Origin: Patescibacteria group bacterium UBA2773
GTDB taxonomy: Bacteria > Patescibacteriota > Minisyncoccia > Moranbacterales > DUUL01
Assembly: GCA_002352465.1 (NCBI GenBank)
Contig: DEIN01000017.1
Coordinates: 777 to 64,776 of the forward strand
Direction of reading: 5' to 3'
Length of the DNA: 64,000 nt
Shown: positions 1 to 60,878 of the stretch, in pieces
How positions within the stretch are numbered: the stretch's first letter is position 1
Layout: the number at the start of each line of letters is the position of its first letter
Program-made: the position numbers and the translations under genes
The notes under the pieces: model-generated
The model's database searches: none
What the model was told of the DNA's origin: nothing
The model's input: the letters and a program-made list of their open reading frames with translations, nothing else

Positions 1-1
1 T

Positions 2-3000
2 TCTTTGCTTTTCAAGAAAACAGGAGAAGTTAGGGAACAAGAAATCTTTTTGACCGATTTTCCTTTGATGACTGAGCGAGGAACTTTTATTATCAATGGA
101 ATCGAGAGAGTTGTGATTTCTCAGATAATCAGAAGTCCTGGAGTTTTCTTTACGATGAATTATCAAAAAGGTAAAAAACTTTTTGGAGCCAAGATTATTC
201 CTAATAAAGGGGCTTGGTTCGAATTTGAGACTGATTACAATAATGTTATTTGGGTTAAAATTGATCGAAGACGAAAAATTCCAGCTACTTCTTTGCTGAA
301 AATTTTTGGTTTGGGAACAGAAGAAGAAATTCTTGAAGTCTTCAAGGATGTTGATACTCAAGAAGACTCATATATAAAAGAGACTTTAAATAAAGATATT
401 ACCAAAACTGTTGGGGAAGCTTATAAAGAAATTTATAAACGATTAAGACCAGGAGATTTGGCTACGCAAGAAAATGCTAAACAAATTATTGATAGTATGT
501 TTTTTGGTTTTGATCGATATGATTTGAGTAAAGTTGGTCGATATCGAATGAATGCCCGATTGGGAATGAACAAGAGTGAAGAAAACGAAGCCGATCGAAT
601 TTTAACCAAGGACGAGTTGGTAATGATTTTAAAAGAAGTCATTAATTTAAATAATGATCCAGAAGCTCAACCAGATGACATTGATCATTTAGGTTCAAGA
701 CGAATTAGAGGTGTGGGTGAATTAGTTCAAAATCGAGTTCGAGTAGGATTGGCTCGAATGGTGCGAAATATTCGAGACCGAATGAGCACTTCTGACAGTG
801 CAACTGTGATGCCTGGTCAGTTGATTAATCCTCGACCGACTGCAACTGTGATTAAAGAATTTTTTGCTTCATCTCAACTTTCTCAATTTATGGATCAAAT
901 TAATCCATTGGCTGAATTGGAACATAAACGACGGATTAGTGCGATGGGTCCTGGTGGATTGGCACGAGAGCGAGCGGGATTTGAAGTGCGAGATGTGCAT
1001 TCTTCTCATTATGGAAGAATTTGCCCAGTGCAAACTCCAGAAGGTCCAAATATTGGTTTGGTTGGTCATTTAGCGACTTACGCTAAAATCAATAAGTATG
1101 GATTTTTGGAAACTCCTTATCGACCAGTCGGCGAAACCATTAAAATTGATGAAAGTATTGAAGAATGGACGGGAAGAATTTTAGAAGAAGATGTTAAAAC
1201 TGCGGCGGGAAAAGTTTTATTTAAAAAAGGATACTCAGTTAAAGGAACTGATTTAGCTGAAATTAGAAAATCTGGGAAAAAAGAAATTAAGGTCCACATC
1301 TTTATTAAAAGTGATGTTCAATATTTGAATGCCTTAGAAGAAGAACAACATCGAATTGTTCACGCTGGAATTAACGTTGATGAATTTGACAATATTTTTG
1401 AAAAAGAAGTTGACATCAGACATAAAGGAACGCCGAAGACTTGTGAAATCAACGAAGTTGATTACGCGGATGTTTCTTCTAAACAATTTATTTCAGTGGC
1501 GACGGCCTTGATTCCTTTCTTGGAACATGATGATGCTAACCGGGCTTTAATGGGTTCAAATATGCAAAGACAAGCAGTTTCTTGTATTCAACCTCAGGCT
1601 CCATTTGTTGGAACTGGATTAGAAGATAAAGCAGCCGCTGATTCTGGCCAAGTTATTTTAGCCAGGGAAGATGGTGTTGTCACAGAAGTTGATGCTAATC
1701 ACGTGGTGGTTAAATATCAAGAAAAAGGCAAAGCCAAGAAACGAGAACATATTTTGCAAAATTTTGTGAAATCTAATGGTTATACTTGTATGAATCAAAT
1801 TCCTCGAGTAGATCGAGGACAAGCAGTAAAAGTCGGTGATCTTTTAGCCGATGGAGCCTCTACTGAAAATGGAGAAATTGCTTTGGGACAAAATATTTTG
1901 ACTGCTTTAATGTCTTGGGAAGGATATAATTTTGAAGATGCGATTATTATTTCTAAGAAATTACTAAAAACCGATAATTATAGCTCAATTCATATTGAAG
2001 ATTTTAAAATTGATGTTCGAGATACTAAGCTTGGGCCAGAAATTGTTACGAGAGATATTCCAAATATTTCCGAAGACCGATTGAAAAACTTGGATGAAAC
2101 TGGCATTATCCGAATTGGAGCTGAAATTGGTTCTGGCGATATTCTTGTTGGTAAGGTGACTTTGAAAGGTGAAGGTGATTTGACTGCTGAAGAGAGGTTA
2201 TTGCGGGCAGTGTTTGGTGAAAAAGCTCGAGACGTTAAGGATACTTCTTTATATTTACCTCATGGTGAAAGTGGAAAAGTAGTAGACATCAAAATTTTCT
2301 CTAGAGAACAGGGAGATAAATTATCCGCCGGAGTAATTCAACAAATTCAAATTTCGATTGCTCAACTTCGAAAAATTTCCGTTGGAGATAAGTTGGCGGG
2401 ACGACATGGAAACAAAGGGGTAATTTCTCGAATTGCGAATGAAGAAGATATGCCCTTTTTGCCAGACGGAACTCCAATCGATTTAATTTTGACTCCTTTG
2501 GGAGTACCTTCTCGAATGAATCTAGGTCAAATCCTTGAAATTCACTTAGGTTGGGCGGCTTCTGTTCTGGGGTATAAAGCGGCAACTCCAGCTTTGAGCG
2601 GAGTGACAAAAGAGCAAATAAAAGCGGAATTGAAAAAAGCTGGTTTGCCAGAAGACGGAAAGATGAACCTTATCAATGGTAAGACGGGCGAACCTTTTAC
2701 TGAGAGAACGACGGTTGGTAGAATGTATATTTTGAAACTGAATCATTTGGTTGAAGATAAATTGCATATGCGTTCAATCGGTCCTTACTCTTTAATCACT
2801 CAACAGCCATTAGGAGGTAAAGCTCAGTTTGGTGGACAAAGATTTGGAGAAATGGAAGTATGGGCGCTTGAAGGTCATGGAGCAGCCAATGTTTTACAAG
2901 AGATGTTGACTATTAAATCTGATGATGTTCTAGGTAGATCTAATGCCTATGAATCAATAATCAAAGGTGAAAAAATTAATCAACCTAATATTCCAGCGGC

Positions 3001-58140: not shown

Positions 58141-59901
58141 CTATTTTTTTAGCTTTATTTCTTGCTTAATCATTTCCACAAATTTTTCAATCTTCAAAGT
58201 TTTTTGTTCTTTCTGCTCTCGTTTTCTGATCGTCACTGTGCCTTCTTGCTCTTCTTTTTCGCCAATAATTAGAAGATATGGAATTTTTAATTTGGTGCTT
58301 TCGGCAATTCTTTTTCCAAGAGAATCGTCAGAATTAAACATTTCAACTCTCAATTCTTCTTTTTTCATTGTTTTGAAAATTGATTTGGCATAATTGTCAA
58401 ATTTTTCGGAAACGGGCAAAATTCCTAGTTGAATTGGAGCAATCCAAGTGGGAAATTTTCCAGTGTAGTATTCGATTAAAAAAGAGAAAAATCTTTCAAA
58501 CGAACCAATTAAAGCTCGGTGAATAACAAAAGGTCTTTCTTTTTCGCCAGTTTGATTTATGAAATTTAGGTCAAATCTTTCGGGTAAATTGAAATCCACT
58601 TGAATAGTTGAAATAGAGTCTTCTTTTCCAAAAACATTAATGGCTTGAACGTCAAGCTTTGGTCCATAAAAAGCGGCTTCGTCCTTTTCTTCGTAAAAAT
58701 CAACTTTAGATTCTTTTAAAACTGCTCTCATAGTTTCCTCGGCTTTTTTCCAATCGGTTCTTTTACCAACGTATTTATCTTTAGAATCCCCGGAAAGTGA
58801 AAGTCTGAATTTATAGTTTTCAAAACCAAGGTCTTTGTAGAATCTTAATAACATTTCTAGAACTTCAACAAATTCAGCTTTGAGCTGAGCGGAAGTGCAA
58901 AAAATGTGAGCATCGTTTTGGGTAAAACCTCTAACTCTTTGTAATCCATGAAGTTCACCAGATTTTTCATAACGATAAACTGTTCCTAATTCTCCCATTT
59001 TTAAGGGAAGTTCTCGATAACTTTTGGGTTTCATTTTATAAACCATCATTCCGGCTGGGCAATTCATTGGTTTGAGATAAAAAGTTTCATTATCAATTTC
59101 AATCGGATTATACATTGATTCATTATAAAAACCTAAATGGCCGGAAGTTTCAAACAATTCTTTTTTGTTGATATGAGGAGTTAGAATATGTTCATAGCCG
59201 TAGCTTCGTTCTAGCTTGATCATATAGTCTTCTAAAACTCTTCGCATTGCATAGCCTTTGGGAAGCCAAACCGGAAGTCCTTGACCAATTTCTGGAATAT
59301 TAGCAAAAAGTTCTAATTCTTTTCCGATTTTTCGATGATTTCTTTTTTTAGCTTCTTCTAATTCAAATAGATGTTTTTTGAGATTAGCTTTGTTTTCAAA
59401 AACGGTTCCGTAGATTCTTTGTAAACTTTCTCTTTTTTCATCACCTTTCCAATAAGCGCTGGAAATTGTGGTCAGTTTGAAGGCTTGCGGGTCGATTTCA
59501 CCGGAAGATTCAATGTGAGGACCAGAACAGAGGTCGACAAAACCATCTAGTTTGTAAAGGCTGAGTTCTTTCTCCCCAGCTTTAATTAAATCCTCAATTA
59601 ATTCAACTTTATATTCTTGGTTTAATTTTTTGAATTTAGCAAAAGTTTCTTGAGCTGGAACTAATTTTTGCTCGAAAGGAAAATTGGCTTTAATAATTTT
59701 TTTCATTTCTTCCTCTAATAAAGGCAGGTCTTCGGGAATTAAAGTTCGAGGCAGTTCGAAGTCGTAATAAAACCCATTATCAATTGCTGGTCCAATTGCG
59801 AATTTGGCTTCTGGAAAAAATTTTAAAACAGCGGTAGCTAGAATGTGGGCCGTGCTGTGGCGCAATAAGTTGAGTTTGTTTTGTTTTTTTTCGTCTTTCA
59901 T
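58141..59901 (-). CDS. thrS: Threonyl-tRNA synthetase (lacks the N-terminal TGS domain)
   Basis: HSTAHIL editing-domain motif, class II catalytic core, C-terminal anticodon-binding domain. 586 aa. Confidence 0.9.
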   Translation of the reverse strand: MKDEKKQNKLNLLRHSTAHILATAVLKFFPEAKFAIGPAIDNGFYYDFELPRTLIPEDLPLLEEEMKKIIKANFPFEQKLVPAQETFAKFKKLNQEYKVELIEDLIKAGEKELSLYKLDGFVDLCSGPHIESSGEIDPQAFKLTTISSAYWKGDEKRESLQRIYGTVFENKANLKKHLFELEEAKKRNHRKIGKELELFANIPEIGQGLPVWLPKGYAMRRVLEDYMIKLERSYGYEHILTPHINKKELFETSGHLGFYNESMYNPIEIDNETFYLKPMNCPAGMMVYKMKPKSYRELPLKMGELGTVYRYEKSGELHGLQRVRGFTQNDAHIFCTSAQLKAEFVEVLEMLLRFYKDLGFENYKFRLSLSGDSKDKYVGKRTDWKKAEETMRAVLKESKVDFYEEKDEAAFYGPKLDVQAINVFGKEDSISTIQVDFNLPERFDLNFINQTGEKERPFVIHRALIGSFERFFSFLIEYYTGKFPTWIAPIQLGILPVSEKFDNYAKSIFKTMKKEELRVEMFNSDDSLGKRIAESTKLKIPYLLIIGEKEEQEGTVTIRKREQKEQKTLKIEKFVEMIKQEIKLKK

Positions 59902-59937
59902 TAAATTAGATTAATTAGTTAAATAATTTATTATCTT

Positions 59938-60079
59938 AAGGATACAAGATACAAGATACAAGGATGCAAACAAATCTCAAATTAAAATATTTAAATTTCA
60001 AACAAAAACCAAAGGTTTTTGAATTTGGTCATTTTAATTTTTAATTTGTTTGTTTCTTGTGTCCTTGTCTCTTGTCTCT
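59938..60079. repeat. Imperfect ~36-bp inverted repeats with (GATACAA)3 / (TTGTCTC)-type units flanking a 70-bp AT-rich core, in the thrS 5' UTR
   Basis: aggatacaagatacaagatacaaggatgcaaacaaa ... tttgtttgtttcttgtgtccttgtctcttgtctctt. Confidence 0.6.
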
Positions 60080-60290
60080 TTTAAACATAAAAACCTCATC
60101 TCAAAAATAATTCATAAAAAAATATGAATAATTTCTAAGACGAGGCTTTGACCCGCGGTTCCACTTAGATTTTCCAGTTTAATTTTAACTAAAACTCTTT
60201 CTAATCTTTTTGGCTTAGTTGAGGGTTTAACCTCAAATTTTATTGCTAAAATATATGTTTGGTAGACATATCAATTACCTTAAGTACTAA
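60079..60290 (-). promoter_or_regulatory. T-box riboswitch leader of thrS (Thr-specific; antiterminator/terminator switch)
   Basis: Minus-strand RNA AAUCUAAGUGGAACCGCGGG matches the T-box consensus AAUUAGGGUGGNACCGCGG, with the canonical 7-nt bulge UGGAACC. The A1 helix CUAAG/CUUAG overlaps the 5' arm of a terminator (CCUCGUCUUAG...GAGAUGAGG + UUUUU, + strand 60079–60135). An ACC-A (Thr codon) sits in a hairpin loop at +60260–60266. A TTGACA-16 nt-TAAAAT promoter lies at +60322..60295. Confidence 0.6.
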
Positions 60291-60383
60291 CCATATTTTA
60301 GAATGATTTTTAGATTTGTCAAGTAAATTCATTGACAAATTTCTCAAAATATACTATGTTTATATGTTGCTGGAATGGCATCT

Positions 60384-60403
60384 ATTGTGGAATTTACCAC
60401 AAT
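60384..60403. promoter_or_regulatory. 20-bp palindrome between the promoter and RBS of the downstream hypothetical gene
   Basis: attgtgg-aattta-ccacaat; TTGACA at 60332–60337 upstream. Confidence 0.35.
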
Positions 60404-60425
60404 AAATTCTTGGAAGGAGAATGAA

Positions 60426-60878
60426 ATGTTTAAAAAGAAAAAAACGGAGATTACTTTGTCTGAGCGAAATTTTGCAGCTTTACAGCTGGCAATTGAAATT
60501 TTAAAGAACCAGTTTGATCAACATGCAATTCCTATCGATGCAGTGTTGGTCAAGGAGAATTCAGAAAGTCTCAAGTATATTGTGAATATAAGGTTTGAGA
60601 CTCCAAGGGTTTTGTGCGGAAAATCAGAAATTGGTTTTTGCGAAGTGAAAATAGAATTTTCAATTTCTGAGCAAAAGCCATATAAACTAAGCGGTTTGGT
60701 TCGATTTATTGTTGTTCATGGTTTTGGACTATATAATAATGGCTTAGATTTTTATTATGATAATGAAGGGGTTTGCAGAGTCCCTCCTGAAACGAAAAAA
60801 GATATTGCTGAATTCTACACTAGAATAAAAGATTATCTTCCGTCTGGTTCGGGTTATCCGATTAGCTCGGAAGAGTAA
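60426..60878 (+). CDS. Hypothetical protein (150 aa)
   Basis: RBS ggaaggaga 5 nt before the ATG at 60426. This is shorter than the track ORF that starts at 60375. Confidence 0.45.
   Translation: MFKKKKTEITLSERNFAALQLAIEILKNQFDQHAIPIDAVLVKENSESLKYIVNIRFETPRVLCGKSEIGFCEVKIEFSISEQKPYKLSGLVRFIVVHGFGLYNNGLDFYYDNEGVCRVPPETKKDIAEFYTRIKDYLPSGSGYPISSEE

What the first reader, a model, noticed from the sequence alone, without database searches (positions are those of the whole stretch)
60079..60290. T-box riboswitch leader upstream of thrS
On the thrS (minus) strand the sequence AAUCUAAGUGGAACCGCGGG matches the T-box consensus. It includes the canonical 7-nt antiterminator bulge UGGAACC. The base UGGA would pair with a UCCA tRNA 3' end.

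The A1 helix CUAAG/CUUAG uses the same nucleotides as the 5' arm of an intrinsic terminator (CCUCGUCUUAG...GAGAUGAGG followed by U5). That is the mutually exclusive antiterminator/terminator logic of T-boxes. A near-consensus promoter (TTGACA-16-TAAAAT) lies ~210 nt upstream. A hairpin loop displays ACC-A, a Thr codon followed by a purine.

T-box control of aaRS genes is classic in Firmicutes. If this genome is CPR-like, a T-box there would be noteworthy. About 175 nt separate the terminator from the ATG and contain another structured repeat; this is an unusual second layer.
Basis: partly seen in the sequence, partly recalled or inferred. Interest (0 to 1): 0.55.

Follow-up and report, generated by a model that had tools for sequence, protein, structure and literature searches.

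The report
Minimal threonine T-box leader in CPR bacterium
The RNA leader in front of the threonyl-tRNA synthetase gene of this ultrasmall (Patescibacteria/CPR) bacterium is a real tRNA-sensing T-box switch, but it is stripped down in a way current rules say a transcription-terminating T-box should not tolerate.

Summary
Window 60089-60322(-) holds a near-consensus promoter, a hairpin displaying ACC-A, the T-box sequence with a UGGAACC bulge, an antiterminator, and an overlapping, much stronger terminator followed by U5, all upstream of thrS. Rfam's T-box model hits only weakly (35 bits; gathering 93) because 86 Stem I positions are missing. The same leader precedes thrS in at least 13 other Patescibacteria-type contigs.

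On a hand-curated 11-sequence alignment, 96.9% of pair cells are standard pairs and 32 of 43 pairs change on both sides. RNAalifold recovers the same seven helices. The window's RpoB and ThrRS place it in Patescibacteria.

The decoding half is unusual:
- A 6-bp hairpin carries the Thr codon in a 7-nt apical loop (YYACCAA).
- It sits with two small hairpins inside a long-range closing helix, forming a four-way junction.
- There is no elbow-binding platform and no S-turn Stem II, yet the expression platform is a terminator.

The nearest published type, Class III, is translational and needs Stem II.

The "second layer" downstream is a non-conserved palindromic insertion. The tRNA-Thr discriminator (U73 predicted) could not be checked.

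Verdict: a genuine T-box, a new variant of a known kind.

The parts
60295..60322 (-). Sigma-70-type promoter: -35 TTGACA (60322-60317), 16-nt spacer, -10 TAAAAT (60300-60295). The inferred transcription start is near 60288.
   Evidence: 11/12 match. An equivalent TTGACA-N16/17-TAnnnT promoter lies at the same distance in the relatives. The start site is inferred, not measured.
60278..60283 (-). P0, 5' strand (UUAAGG) of the long-range closing helix of the decoding module.
   Evidence: Pairs with 60208-60213. Across 11 leaders 84.8% of cells are paired, 4 of 6 pairs change on both sides, and the pair at columns 10/101 is G-C in 5 and A-U in 5. RNAalifold recovers the helix. In the window itself only 4 of 6 positions pair.
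60272..60277 (-). Junction strand UAAUUG (consensus UGAUUG; UUG is invariant).
   Evidence: invariant columns. Its role is unresolved; a K-turn could not be demonstrated.
60253..60271 (-). P1, the ultrashort Stem I. It is a 6-bp hairpin (AUAUGU/ACAUAU) with the 7-nt apical loop CUACCAA (60265-60259). The Specifier ACC is at 60263-60261 and the following purine A at 60260.
   Evidence: All 6 pairs show changes on both sides and 98.5% of cells are paired. ACCAA is invariant in all 14 CPR-type leaders.
60237..60252 (-). P2, a mini hairpin (AUUUUA-GCAA-UAAAAU) in the position of Stem II. It is 6 bp with a GNRA loop and has no S-turn.
   Evidence: 100% of cells are paired and 5 of 6 pairs change on both sides. 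It is absent in L001 and L104.
60219..60236 (-). P3 hairpin (UUGAGG-UUAAAC-CCUCAA), in the position of Stem IIA.
   Evidence: 98% of cells are paired and 6 of 6 pairs change on both sides. Rfam aligns it to the Stem IIA/F-box region of RF00230.
60208..60218 (-). Invariant CUAA plus one nucleotide (60218-60214), then the P0 3' strand CCAAAA (60213-60208).
60195..60207 (-). A-rich single-stranded linker ending in the conserved AGAG (60198-60195), which is the RAG-type purine motif 5' of Stem III.
   Evidence: AG.G is invariant in the 11 leaders. The role of the RAG motif is taken from PMC11297988.
60172..60194 (-). Stem III (UUUUAGUU-AAAAUUA-AACUGGAA).
   Evidence: 98.5% of cells are paired and 6 of 8 pairs change on both sides. 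Aligned to Stem III of RF00230.
60134..60171 (-). T-box sequence and antiterminator. The parts are AA, A1 5' strand UCUAAG (60169-60164), the 7-nt bulge UGGAACC (60163-60157, with UGGA at 60163-60160), A2 GCGGG (60156-60152), the loop (60151-60145), A2 3' strand CUCGU (60144-60140) and A1 3' strand CUUAGA (60139-60134).
   Evidence: A1 and A2 100% paired; 5 of 6 A1 pairs change on both sides; -6.7 kcal/mol.
60089..60145 (-). Intrinsic terminator: a 52-nt hairpin at 60145-60094 (-25.2 kcal/mol) followed by UUUUU at 60093-60089. Its 5' arm contains all 11 nt of the antiterminator's 3' strand.
   Evidence: All 11 leaders have a terminator of -17.5 to -37.9 kcal/mol followed by U5-U8.
59936..60090 (-). 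Long imperfect palindrome in the terminator-to-ATG spacer. It is a lineage-specific insertion, not part of the conserved riboswitch.
   Evidence: no other copy in the window; z = -6.4; absent from the closest relative L102; spacers are 32-211 nt and unrelated.
58141..59901 (-). thrS, the regulated gene (586 aa).
   Evidence: TIGR00418, 670.6 bits. One search lists the Pfam domains tRNA_SAD, tRNA-synt_2b and HGTP_anticodon.

Best explanation
This is a threonine-specific T-box riboswitch that controls thrS by transcription attenuation.

Transcription starts about 7 nt after the -10 box. The first ~80 nt fold into a compact decoding module. A long-range closing helix (P0) encloses three abutting hairpins. 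The first of them (P1, 6 bp) presents the Thr codon ACC plus a 3' purine in a 7-nt, anticodon-loop-like apical loop.

The anticodon of tRNA-Thr(GGU) pairs with this loop. After an A-rich linker, the discriminator domain tests the tRNA's 3' end. That domain consists of the AGAG motif, Stem III, and helices A1/A2 with the UGGAACC bulge.

- If the tRNA is uncharged, its NCCA end (predicted UCCA) pairs with UGGA and stabilises the weak antiterminator. RNA polymerase then reads through into thrS.
- If the tRNA is charged or absent, the much more stable terminator (60145-60094 plus U5) takes the antiterminator's 3' strand and transcription stops.

What is shown: the sequence elements, their conservation and covariation, the mutually exclusive folds and their relative energies, the link to thrS, and the CPR origin.

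What is inferred: tRNA binding itself, the sensing of charge state, the start site, and that termination (not translation) is the regulated step.

Architecturally this is a terminator-type T-box with a Class III-like ultrashort Stem I. It lacks both the elbow-binding double T-loop platform and an S-turn Stem II.
For: - RF00230 is the top hit in the leader (35 bits, E = 4e-6). Posterior probability is high over Stem III, the T-box sequence and the antiterminator.
- The downstream gene is thrS.
- Five CPR-type thrS leaders from other genomes score 33.5-35.4 bits with the same Stem I deletion, while a Treponema thrS leader with a full Stem I scores 54 bits.
- Fourteen distinct CPR-type leaders, all upstream of thrS, carry ACCAA in a short hairpin loop and UGGA in the bulge.
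- On the curated alignment A2, 96.9% of pair cells are standard pairs. Shuffles give 73.3 +/- 1.4% (0 of 500 reach the observed value) and slid partners give 34-55%. 32 of 43 pairs change on both sides.
- RNAalifold independently predicts the same seven helices, and 33 of its 42 pairs are kept through changes on both sides.
- In all 11 leaders a terminator of -17.5 to -37.9 kcal/mol with U5-U8 sequesters 7-11 of the 11 nt of the antiterminator's 3' strand. The antiterminator is about -7 to -11 kcal/mol where its loop is short.
- The promoter matches the consensus at 11 of 12 positions.
- tRNA-Thr(GGU) would read ACC plus ACU, which is 72% of Thr codons in the window's genes.
- The window is from Patescibacteria.
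Against: - The Rfam score is far below the gathering score (35 versus 93), and the whole-window gathering scan reports no T-box.
- No cognate tRNA-Thr gene was found in any sequence held, so neither the GGU anticodon nor the U73 discriminator predicted by UGGA is verified.
- Alignment A2 was fitted by hand to the proposed structure, which inflates pair counts. The slid-partner control and RNAalifold mitigate this but do not remove it.
- In the window itself P0 is weak, with 4 of 6 positions paired.
- Published work holds that transcriptional T-boxes need the Stem I elbow platform for fast tRNA capture (PMC7583486). It also holds that short-Stem-I T-boxes bind tRNA poorly without Stem II. Function of this minimal design is therefore not self-evident.
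- No experiment exists.
Confidence: 0.88

Rival explanations
1. It is a translational (Class III-like) T-box. Under this reading the large hairpin is a sequestrator of the ribosome-binding site, not a terminator, as in actinobacterial ileS leaders with ultrashort Stem I.
For: Stem I resembles Class III: it is short, has no IDTM, and carries the Specifier in an apical loop. Published short-Stem-I T-boxes mostly regulate translation. Several relatives carry large insertions in helix A2, a trait the review associates with translational T-boxes.
Against: The hairpin is followed directly by U5-U8 in 11 of 11 leaders. It ends 32-211 nt upstream of the start codon, so it cannot occlude the ribosome-binding site. 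The spacer between hairpin and ATG is not conserved.
Confidence: 0.05
2. It is a ThrRS-binding autoregulatory operator like the one in the E. coli thrS leader. In that system hairpins mimic the tRNA-Thr anticodon arm and the synthetase represses its own mRNA.
For: The gene is the same (thrS). The 7-nt hairpin loop has anticodon-loop size and a 3' AA, so it superficially resembles an anticodon arm.
Against: The loop triplet is the codon ACC, not a Thr anticodon (NGU), in all 14 leaders. From established knowledge of the E. coli system, operator mimicry depends on the anticodon-like bases. This model also leaves unexplained the conserved T-box sequence, the UGGAACC bulge, Stem III and the terminator/antiterminator pair.
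Confidence: 0.02
3. It is a decayed or non-functional remnant of a canonical T-box. On this view a Stem I deletion left an inert leader that terminates constitutively or has become irrelevant.
For: It has lost elements considered essential for transcriptional T-boxes, namely the IDTM and the S-turn Stem II. Its distribution among CPR thrS loci is patchy: roughly 9-10 of about 45 CPR-labelled loci have it.
Against: The reduced architecture is conserved, with extensive compensatory change, across lineages whose ThrRS proteins are only about 50-85% identical. ACCAA, UUG, CUAA, AGAG and UGGAACC are invariant. A strong terminator in front of an essential single-copy gene would be lethal unless it could be relieved.
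Confidence: 0.05

Closest known systems
Class III T-box riboswitches (actinobacterial ileS leaders of Nocardia farcinica and Mycobacterium tuberculosis), as classified in PMC10482949
   Same: Both have a short Stem I without the elbow-binding double T-loop motif, with the Specifier displayed in the apical loop of a short hairpin. In both, three small helices abut with near-zero linkers. Both share the universal discriminator core: the RAG motif, Stem III, the T-box sequence and the 7-nt UGGNACC bulge.
   Different: Class III leaders mostly regulate translation, through a sequestrator. They have a 5-6-nt apical loop, a K-turn, and a long Stem II whose S-turn purines clamp the codon-anticodon duplex and are required for binding. 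They also have a IIA/B pseudoknot.

Here the platform is an intrinsic terminator and the loop is 7 nt. 'Stem II' is a 3-6-bp hairpin, absent in L001 and L104. A long-range helix (P0) closes the module into a four-way junction where the pseudoknot's 3' strand would be. The amino acid is Thr and the host is Patescibacteria.
Class I T-box riboswitches (for example the Bacillus subtilis tyrS and thrS leaders; Rfam RF00230)
   Same: Both use transcription attenuation by mutually exclusive antiterminator and terminator structures. Both have an ACC-type Specifier followed by a purine in front of an aminoacyl-tRNA synthetase gene, and both have the T-box sequence and Stem III.
   Different: Class I has a Stem I of about 90-100 nt with a K-turn, an internal Specifier loop with an S-turn, an AG bulge and a distal loop (the IDTM). 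It also has Stem II with an S-turn and the IIA/B pseudoknot. Here 86 model positions of Stem I are replaced by 13 nt, and the score is 35 bits against a gathering score of 93.
Class II (glyQS) T-box riboswitches
   Same: Both are minimal transcriptional T-boxes without a functional Stem II domain. In both a single-stranded linker joins the decoding and discriminator domains.
   Different: glyQS leaders keep the long Stem I with the IDTM and are glycine-specific. The leader here lacks the long Stem I.
E. coli thrS translational operator (ThrRS autoregulation)
   Same: The regulated gene is the same, and both have a hairpin loop the size of an anticodon loop in the leader.
   Different: The E. 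coli element mimics the anticodon arm and binds the protein. The element here displays the codon and carries a complete tRNA 3'-end-sensing T-box core.

Membership tests
T-box leader (Rfam RF00230; T-box riboswitch in the broad sense) | Score at or above the family's curated gathering threshold. | tested here: not met
   35 bits against a gathering score of 93 (E = 4e-6 for the 601 nt searched). There is no hit in the whole-window gathering scan. Relatives score 33.5-35.4 bits.
T-box leader (Rfam RF00230; T-box riboswitch in the broad sense) | Conserved T-box sequence (AGGGUGGNACCGCG) forming the 5' side of an antiterminator with a 7-nt bulge UGGNACC. | tested here: met
   The window has UAAGUGGAACCGCG, an 11/14 match. 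The 3 differences lie in helix A1 and covary with its partner strand. The bulge is UGGAACC. A1 and A2 are 100% paired in the 11 leaders, and 5 of 6 A1 pairs change on both sides.
T-box leader (Rfam RF00230; T-box riboswitch in the broad sense) | Mutually exclusive, more stable terminator (or sequestrator) that uses the antiterminator's 3' strand. | tested here: met
   The window terminator is -25.2 kcal/mol plus U5, against -6.7 kcal/mol for the antiterminator, with 11 of 11 nt shared. The same logic holds in all 11 leaders.
T-box leader (Rfam RF00230; T-box riboswitch in the broad sense) | Specifier codon that matches the amino acid of the regulated gene and is followed by a purine. | tested here: met
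   ACC-A lies upstream of thrS and is invariant in 14 of 14 CPR-type leaders.
T-box leader (Rfam RF00230; T-box riboswitch in the broad sense) | Stem III preceded by the conserved purine (RAG/AGAG) motif. | tested here: met
   AG.G is invariant. Stem III is 98.5% paired, and 6 of 8 pairs change on both sides.
T-box leader (Rfam RF00230; T-box riboswitch in the broad sense) | The variable base of UGGN is complementary to the discriminator base of the cognate tRNA. | not tested
   UGGA predicts U73. No tRNA-Thr gene was found in the window, its extensions or any related locus. The indirect observation is that A is invariant in 14 CPR leaders, whereas the Treponema thrS leader has UGGU.
T-box leader (Rfam RF00230; T-box riboswitch in the broad sense) | Binding of uncharged cognate tRNA causes read-through. 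| not testable with these tools
   This needs in vitro transcription or a reporter assay.
Class I (canonical transcriptional) T-box | Long Stem I with a distal AG bulge and distal loop (the interdigitated double T-loop motif) that docks the tRNA elbow. | tested here: not met
   86 Stem I model positions are replaced by 13 nt. Stem I is a 6-bp hairpin with a 7-nt loop in all 11 core leaders. The whole leader from the start site to the T-box is only about 120 nt.
Class I (canonical transcriptional) T-box | Specifier in an internal loop of Stem I. | tested here: not met
   The Specifier is in the apical loop.
Class I (canonical transcriptional) T-box | Stem II with an S-turn, plus the Stem IIA/B pseudoknot. 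| tested here: not met
   P2 is a 3-6-bp hairpin with a variable loop and is absent in L001 and L104. The segment 3' of P3 pairs with the leader's 5' end (P0) and not with the P3 loop. A 3-bp AU pseudoknot cannot be excluded.
Class III T-box (PMC10482949) | Short Stem I without an IDTM, with the Specifier in an apical loop. | tested here: met
   The loop is 7 nt here, against the 5-6 nt described for the class.
Class III T-box (PMC10482949) | A long Stem II with an S-turn that is required for function. | tested here: not met
   No such stem is present. P2 is a mini hairpin or is absent.
Class III T-box (PMC10482949) | K-turn at the base of Stem I. | tested here: inconclusive
   L019 has a textbook K-turn (GC-GCU-GA...UGA-GC) and L026 has a K-turn-like motif (read). 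In the window's group, the conserved UGAUUG and CUAA junction strands do not fit a canonical tandem G.A arrangement.
Class III T-box (PMC10482949) | Mostly translational control (a sequestrator of the ribosome-binding site). | tested here: not met
   The hairpin is followed by U5-U8 and ends 32-211 nt before the start codon.

The most novel reading that the evidence does not exclude
These thrS leaders may define a previously undescribed architectural class of T-box. It would be a transcription-terminating T-box that reads tRNA identity with nothing more than an anticodon-loop-like 7-nt apical loop on a 6-bp hairpin. [quoted passage not shown] The class would have neither an elbow platform nor an S-turn clamp. 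It is spread across several Patescibacteria lineages and, as far as was seen, is dedicated to thrS. If it is functional, it contradicts the working rule that co-transcriptional T-boxes need the elbow contact for fast tRNA capture. It would also be one of the first native RNA regulators identified in Patescibacteria.
Probability: 0.5. Interest if true: 0.72.

Novelty: new variant of a known kind. Interest (0 to 1): 0.62.

Why it matters
T-boxes are the textbook case of one structured RNA reading another, and their architecture has been sorted into four classes. The accepted view comes from PMC7583486 and PMC10482949:
- Terminator-type T-boxes need the long Stem I elbow platform to capture tRNA within the short transcription window.
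- Short-Stem-I T-boxes are translational and need the Stem II S-turn.

A conserved, covarying leader that pairs an ultrashort apical-loop Specifier with an intrinsic terminator and has no S-turn stem breaks both halves of that rule. It offers a very small natural T-box, about 200 nt from start site to U-tract, for structural and kinetic work.

It also shows that Patescibacteria use a tRNA-sensing riboswitch on an essential synthetase gene. [quoted passage not shown] Finally, such leaders score far below Rfam's threshold, so standard annotation misses them.

Tried and rejected
- **Whole-window Rfam scan at gathering threshold.** It found only tRNA-Lys. The T-box appears only in the permissive scan.
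- **tRNA-Thr hunt for the discriminator test.** ARAGORN found no tRNA-Thr in the window, in 47 CPR-type loci, in window extensions from the look-up of encoding contigs (only tRNA-His), or upstream of rpoB in relatives (only tRNA-Gly). In this lineage rpoB is not preceded by the tuf/tRNA cluster.
- **A wasted homology search.** I queried the RpoB of ENA contig L144, which turned out to be gammaproteobacterial (75% identical to Methylocaldum). That contig is chimeric inside rpoB and differs from the window before about position 2500. The result says nothing about the window. The window's own RpoB is patescibacterial.
- **Pattern scans.** The viral-contig scan found nothing. The metagenome scan returned 60 loci, most of them chance matches in GC-rich coding sequence or ordinary long-Stem-I T-boxes. 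No leader of this architecture with a Specifier other than ACC was found.
- **First terminator-finding script.** It was too loose and crashed. I replaced it with an anchored version.
- **MAFFT alignment A1.** It shifted the small hairpins by 1-2 nt, so I used a hand-curated N-padded alignment, A2.
- **Expectation about ACC.** I expected ACC to be a rare codon here. It is 21% of Thr codons, so no composition argument is made.
- **K-turn reading of the UGAUUG/CUAA junction.** I considered it and could not support it.
- **Readings of the downstream palindrome.** A conserved second regulatory layer is rejected. I also considered a leader peptide, since a 15-codon ORF starts right after the U-tract, but treated it as chance because the spacer is not conserved.
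- **Papers not held.** Sherwood 2015 and Battaglia 2019 were not in the library.
- **No covariance model was built.** Only sequence already held could have been searched with it.
Full report
**Observation**

- The promoter is TTGACA (60322-60317), a 16-nt spacer, and TAAAAT (60300-60295). This is an 11/12 match to the consensus.
- The hairpin AUAUGU/ACAUAU has the loop CUACCAA at 60265-60259. ACC is at 60263-60261, followed by A.
- The T-box sequence AAUCUAAGUGGAACCGCGGG contains the 7-nt bulge UGGAACC at 60163-60157.
- The antiterminator has helices A1 (UCUAAG/CUUAGA) and A2 (GCGGG/CUCGU).
- A 52-nt terminator hairpin at 60145-60094 is followed by UUUUU at 60093-60089.
- The downstream ORF 58141-59901(-) is thrS (TIGR00418, 670 bits).

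**Rfam**

At gathering thresholds the whole window yields only tRNA-Lys. A permissive scan of the leader puts RF00230 on top: 35 bits against a gathering score of 93, with E = 4e-6 for the 601 nt searched. Stem III, the T-box sequence and the antiterminator align with high posterior probability. However, 86 model positions of Stem I are replaced by 13 nt. The element is therefore T-box-like in its 3' half and aberrant in its 5' half.

**Organism**

ThrRS is 75% and 71% identical to two 'Patescibacteria group' MAGs. It is 55-61% identical to MAGs labelled Dojkabacteria or Saccharibacteria. The window's own RpoB fragment, a short form of about 1,130 aa, is 70-78% identical to Patescibacteria/Moranbacteria MAGs and 88-95% identical to unnamed relatives. 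GC content is 0.27-0.38 throughout the window.

One detour needs recording. The ENA assembly of this contig (L144) carries a gammaproteobacterial rplL and N-terminal rpoB at its end, and it matches the window only from about position 2500 onward. That assembly is chimeric. The window itself is not implicated.

**Relatives**

The core motif GTGGAACCRCG lies upstream of thrS in genome loci L001, L002, L013, L019 and L071. Relaxed forms occur in L004, L026, L044 and probably L012. A Treponema locus (L025) has a canonical long-Stem-I thrS T-box with UGGU, scoring 54 bits, whereas the CPR-type leaders score 33.5-35.4 bits.

A metagenome scan with a clade-specific T-box pattern returned 60 loci. The AT-rich CPR-type ones are L086/L134, L087/L102, L090, L104/L106, L116 and L124/L131, and the thrS coding region starts about 140-320 nt downstream of the T-box motif in each. 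All 14 distinct leaders have ACCAA in a short hairpin loop and UGGA in the bulge. I recovered no leader of this type with any other codon. I also found no second T-box core in about 150 kb held from this organism and its close relatives, which includes serS and an aspS/asnS-type gene.

**Architecture**

Reading the leaders side by side showed a long-range complementarity. The 5' end pairs with the segment after the third hairpin, and the differences between leaders are compensatory. Examples are UUGUGA/UCACAG in L104, CUUUGA/UCAAAG in L002, UUGCCAAA/UUUGGCAA in L071 and AUCUAAA/UUUAGAU in L004.

I encoded a hand-curated structural alignment of 11 leaders. Each row was verified against the real sequence, gaps were written as N, and long antiterminator loops were truncated. 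The pair counts on it are as follows:
- 96.9% of 416 pair cells are standard pairs.
- Shuffled 3' letters give 73.3 +/- 1.4%, and 0 of 500 shuffles reach the observed value.
- Sliding the 3' partners by 1-3 columns gives 34-55%.
- 32 of 43 pairs change on both sides.

| Helix | Cells paired | Pairs changed on both sides |
|---|---|---|
| P0 (closing helix) | 84.8% | 4 of 6 |
| P1 (Specifier hairpin) | 98.5% | 6 of 6 |
| P2 | 100% | 5 of 6 |
| P3 | 98% | 6 of 6 |
| Stem III | 98.5% | 6 of 8 |
| A1 | 100% | 5 of 6 |
| A2 | 100% | 0 of 5 (invariant or wobble changes only) |

RNAalifold, given only the alignment, predicts the same seven helices. 33 of its 42 pairs are kept through changes on both sides. 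The caveat is that the alignment was fitted to the structure by hand.

The decoding module therefore consists of:
- P0, the closing helix;
- the junction strand UGAUUG (UUG invariant);
- P1, with the 7-nt loop YYACCAA;
- P2, a 3-6-bp mini hairpin that is absent in L001 and L104;
- P3;
- the invariant CUAA, followed by the P0 3' strand.

In the window the three hairpins abut with zero-length linkers. After the module come an A-rich linker ending in the invariant AG.G, then Stem III, then the antiterminator. L019 and L026 are built differently. They have a K-turn (textbook in L019), a 4-bp stem, a 9-nt apical loop and one further hairpin, with no closing helix.

**Switch**

In all 11 core leaders the explicit antiterminator is weak, at -6.7 to -10.8 kcal/mol where its loop is short. 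The terminator is much stronger, at -17.5 to -37.9 kcal/mol, and is followed by U5-U8. It sequesters 7-11 of the 11 nt of the antiterminator's 3' strand. In the window the values are -6.7 and -25.2 kcal/mol, with all 11 nt shared. The hairpin ends 32-211 nt before the start codon, so it cannot act by hiding the ribosome-binding site. That makes termination, not translation, the likely regulated step. This remains an inference.

**The 'second layer'**

The window's 187-nt spacer contains one long imperfect hairpin with 52-nt arms that are 73% complementary (z = -6.4). It has no other copy in the window. In the closest relative (L102, ThrRS 85% identical) the spacer is 70 nt and unstructured. 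In L001, L104, L124 and L002 it is 32-47 nt with essentially no predicted structure. L086 and L013 have unrelated palindromes. The window's hairpin is a lineage-specific insertion and not part of the riboswitch.

**Comparison with known T-boxes**

[quoted passage not shown] It says ultrashort Stem I's belong to translational T-boxes, and that truncated Stem I's barely bind tRNA without Stem II (PMC7583486).

The four-class scheme of PMC10482949 defines Class III as having a short Stem I without an IDTM, a Specifier in a 5-6-nt apical loop, a requirement for Stem II, and mostly translational control.

The present leader shares Class III's Stem I idea and the universal discriminator core. It differs in four ways:
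- It has a terminator.
- Its apical loop is 7 nt.
- It has no S-turn Stem II.
- A closing helix sits where the IIA/B pseudoknot's 3' strand would be.

It fails the defining Stem I and Stem II features of Class I, and it fails Rfam's score threshold. I therefore file it as a genuine T-box in mechanism and core, but as a new architectural variant.

Full-text searches found no paper combining T-box with CPR or Patescibacteria, and none describing a terminator-type T-box with an apical-loop Specifier. A 2024 perspective calls regulation in Patescibacteria virtually unknown and mentions riboswitches only as prospective tools (PMC11665869). The library lacks most subscription papers, so prior description elsewhere cannot be excluded.

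**Rivals**
- A translational sequestrator is unlikely, given the U-tracts and the distance to the ATG.
- An E. coli-type ThrRS operator is excluded, because the loop shows the codon ACC and not an NGU anticodon, and because the whole T-box core would be left unexplained.
- A decayed relic is contradicted by invariant motifs and extensive compensatory change across lineages whose ThrRS proteins are only about 50-85% identical.

**Not done**

The tRNA-Thr discriminator test could not be done. UGGA predicts U73, but no tRNA-Thr gene lies in any sequence I could reach. ACC would select tRNA-Thr(GGU), which reads ACC plus ACU, together 72% of Thr codons in the window's genes.

Noticed in passing
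L144 1-4250 versus window 1-2500: The ENA assembly of this contig (ERZ27237539 k141_855751) is chimeric inside rpoB. Its end carries rplL and the N-terminal two-thirds of an rpoB that is 75% identical to Methylocaldum/Sedimenticola (Gammaproteobacteria), at GC 0.40-0.42. It matches the window exactly only from about window position 2500 onward. The window's own rpoB is patescibacterial.
   Followed up: yes
window 60332-60360 (+) and 60322-60295 (-): Two back-to-back divergent promoters lie 10 nt apart. TTGACA-17-TATGTT (10/12 match) on the plus strand faces the 167-aa ORF 60375-60878, which has no family match. The thrS leader promoter is on the minus strand.
   Followed up: no
L002 2816-2875, L013 2782-2830, L086, L090 and L124 (antiterminator A2 loops): Five relatives carry insertions of 20-90 nt in the terminal loop of antiterminator helix A2, and some fold into extra hairpins. 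The review PMC7583486 associates A2 insertions with translational T-boxes and with the staphylococcal Stem Sa.
   Followed up: partly
window 59936-60090; also the terminator-to-ATG spacers of L086 and L013: Unrelated long palindromes sit between the terminator and the thrS start in three different lineages. The one in L086 has a 21-bp near-perfect stem. They may be small palindromic insertion elements, or RNA-stabilising or processing hairpins.
   Followed up: partly
window 59902-59922; L090 and L124 just upstream of the thrS ATG: A short motif, UAAUCUAAU(Y)(Y)(W), lies directly before the ATG and is shared by the window, L090 and L124, although the spacers are otherwise unrelated. No obvious Shine-Dalgarno sequence is present.
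   Followed up: no
window 58141-59901 (-): ThrRS is 586 aa. The Pfam domains on record are tRNA_SAD, tRNA-synt_2b and HGTP_anticodon, with no N-terminal TGS domain hit. That makes it shorter than the ~640-aa bacterial enzymes I recall.
   Followed up: no
L019 2690-2925: In this Patescibacteria MAG a small ORF of about 75 codons, with a strong AAGGAGG ribosome-binding site, lies on the opposite strand between the T-box terminator and thrS. The leader is therefore about 410 nt from the gene it presumably controls.
   Followed up: no
L019 2499-2528 and L026 1077-1111: These more distant CPR thrS leaders have a different decoding module. It consists of a K-turn (textbook in L019: GC-GCU-GA...UGA-GC), a 4-bp stem, a 9-nt apical loop containing ACCAA, and a single following hairpin, with no closing helix. 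This is closer to the actinobacterial ultrashort Stem I.
   Followed up: partly
window 60084-60037 (-): A 15-codon ORF (MFKRDKRQGHKKQTN) starts at the AUG immediately after the terminator U-tract. It lies within the non-conserved palindrome and is probably chance.
   Followed up: no
L145 2914-7504: In a close relative (RpoB 95% identical) an aspS/asnS-type gene and serS have only about 130-nt upstream gaps and no T-box core. This suggests that T-box control in this lineage is limited to thrS.
   Followed up: partly
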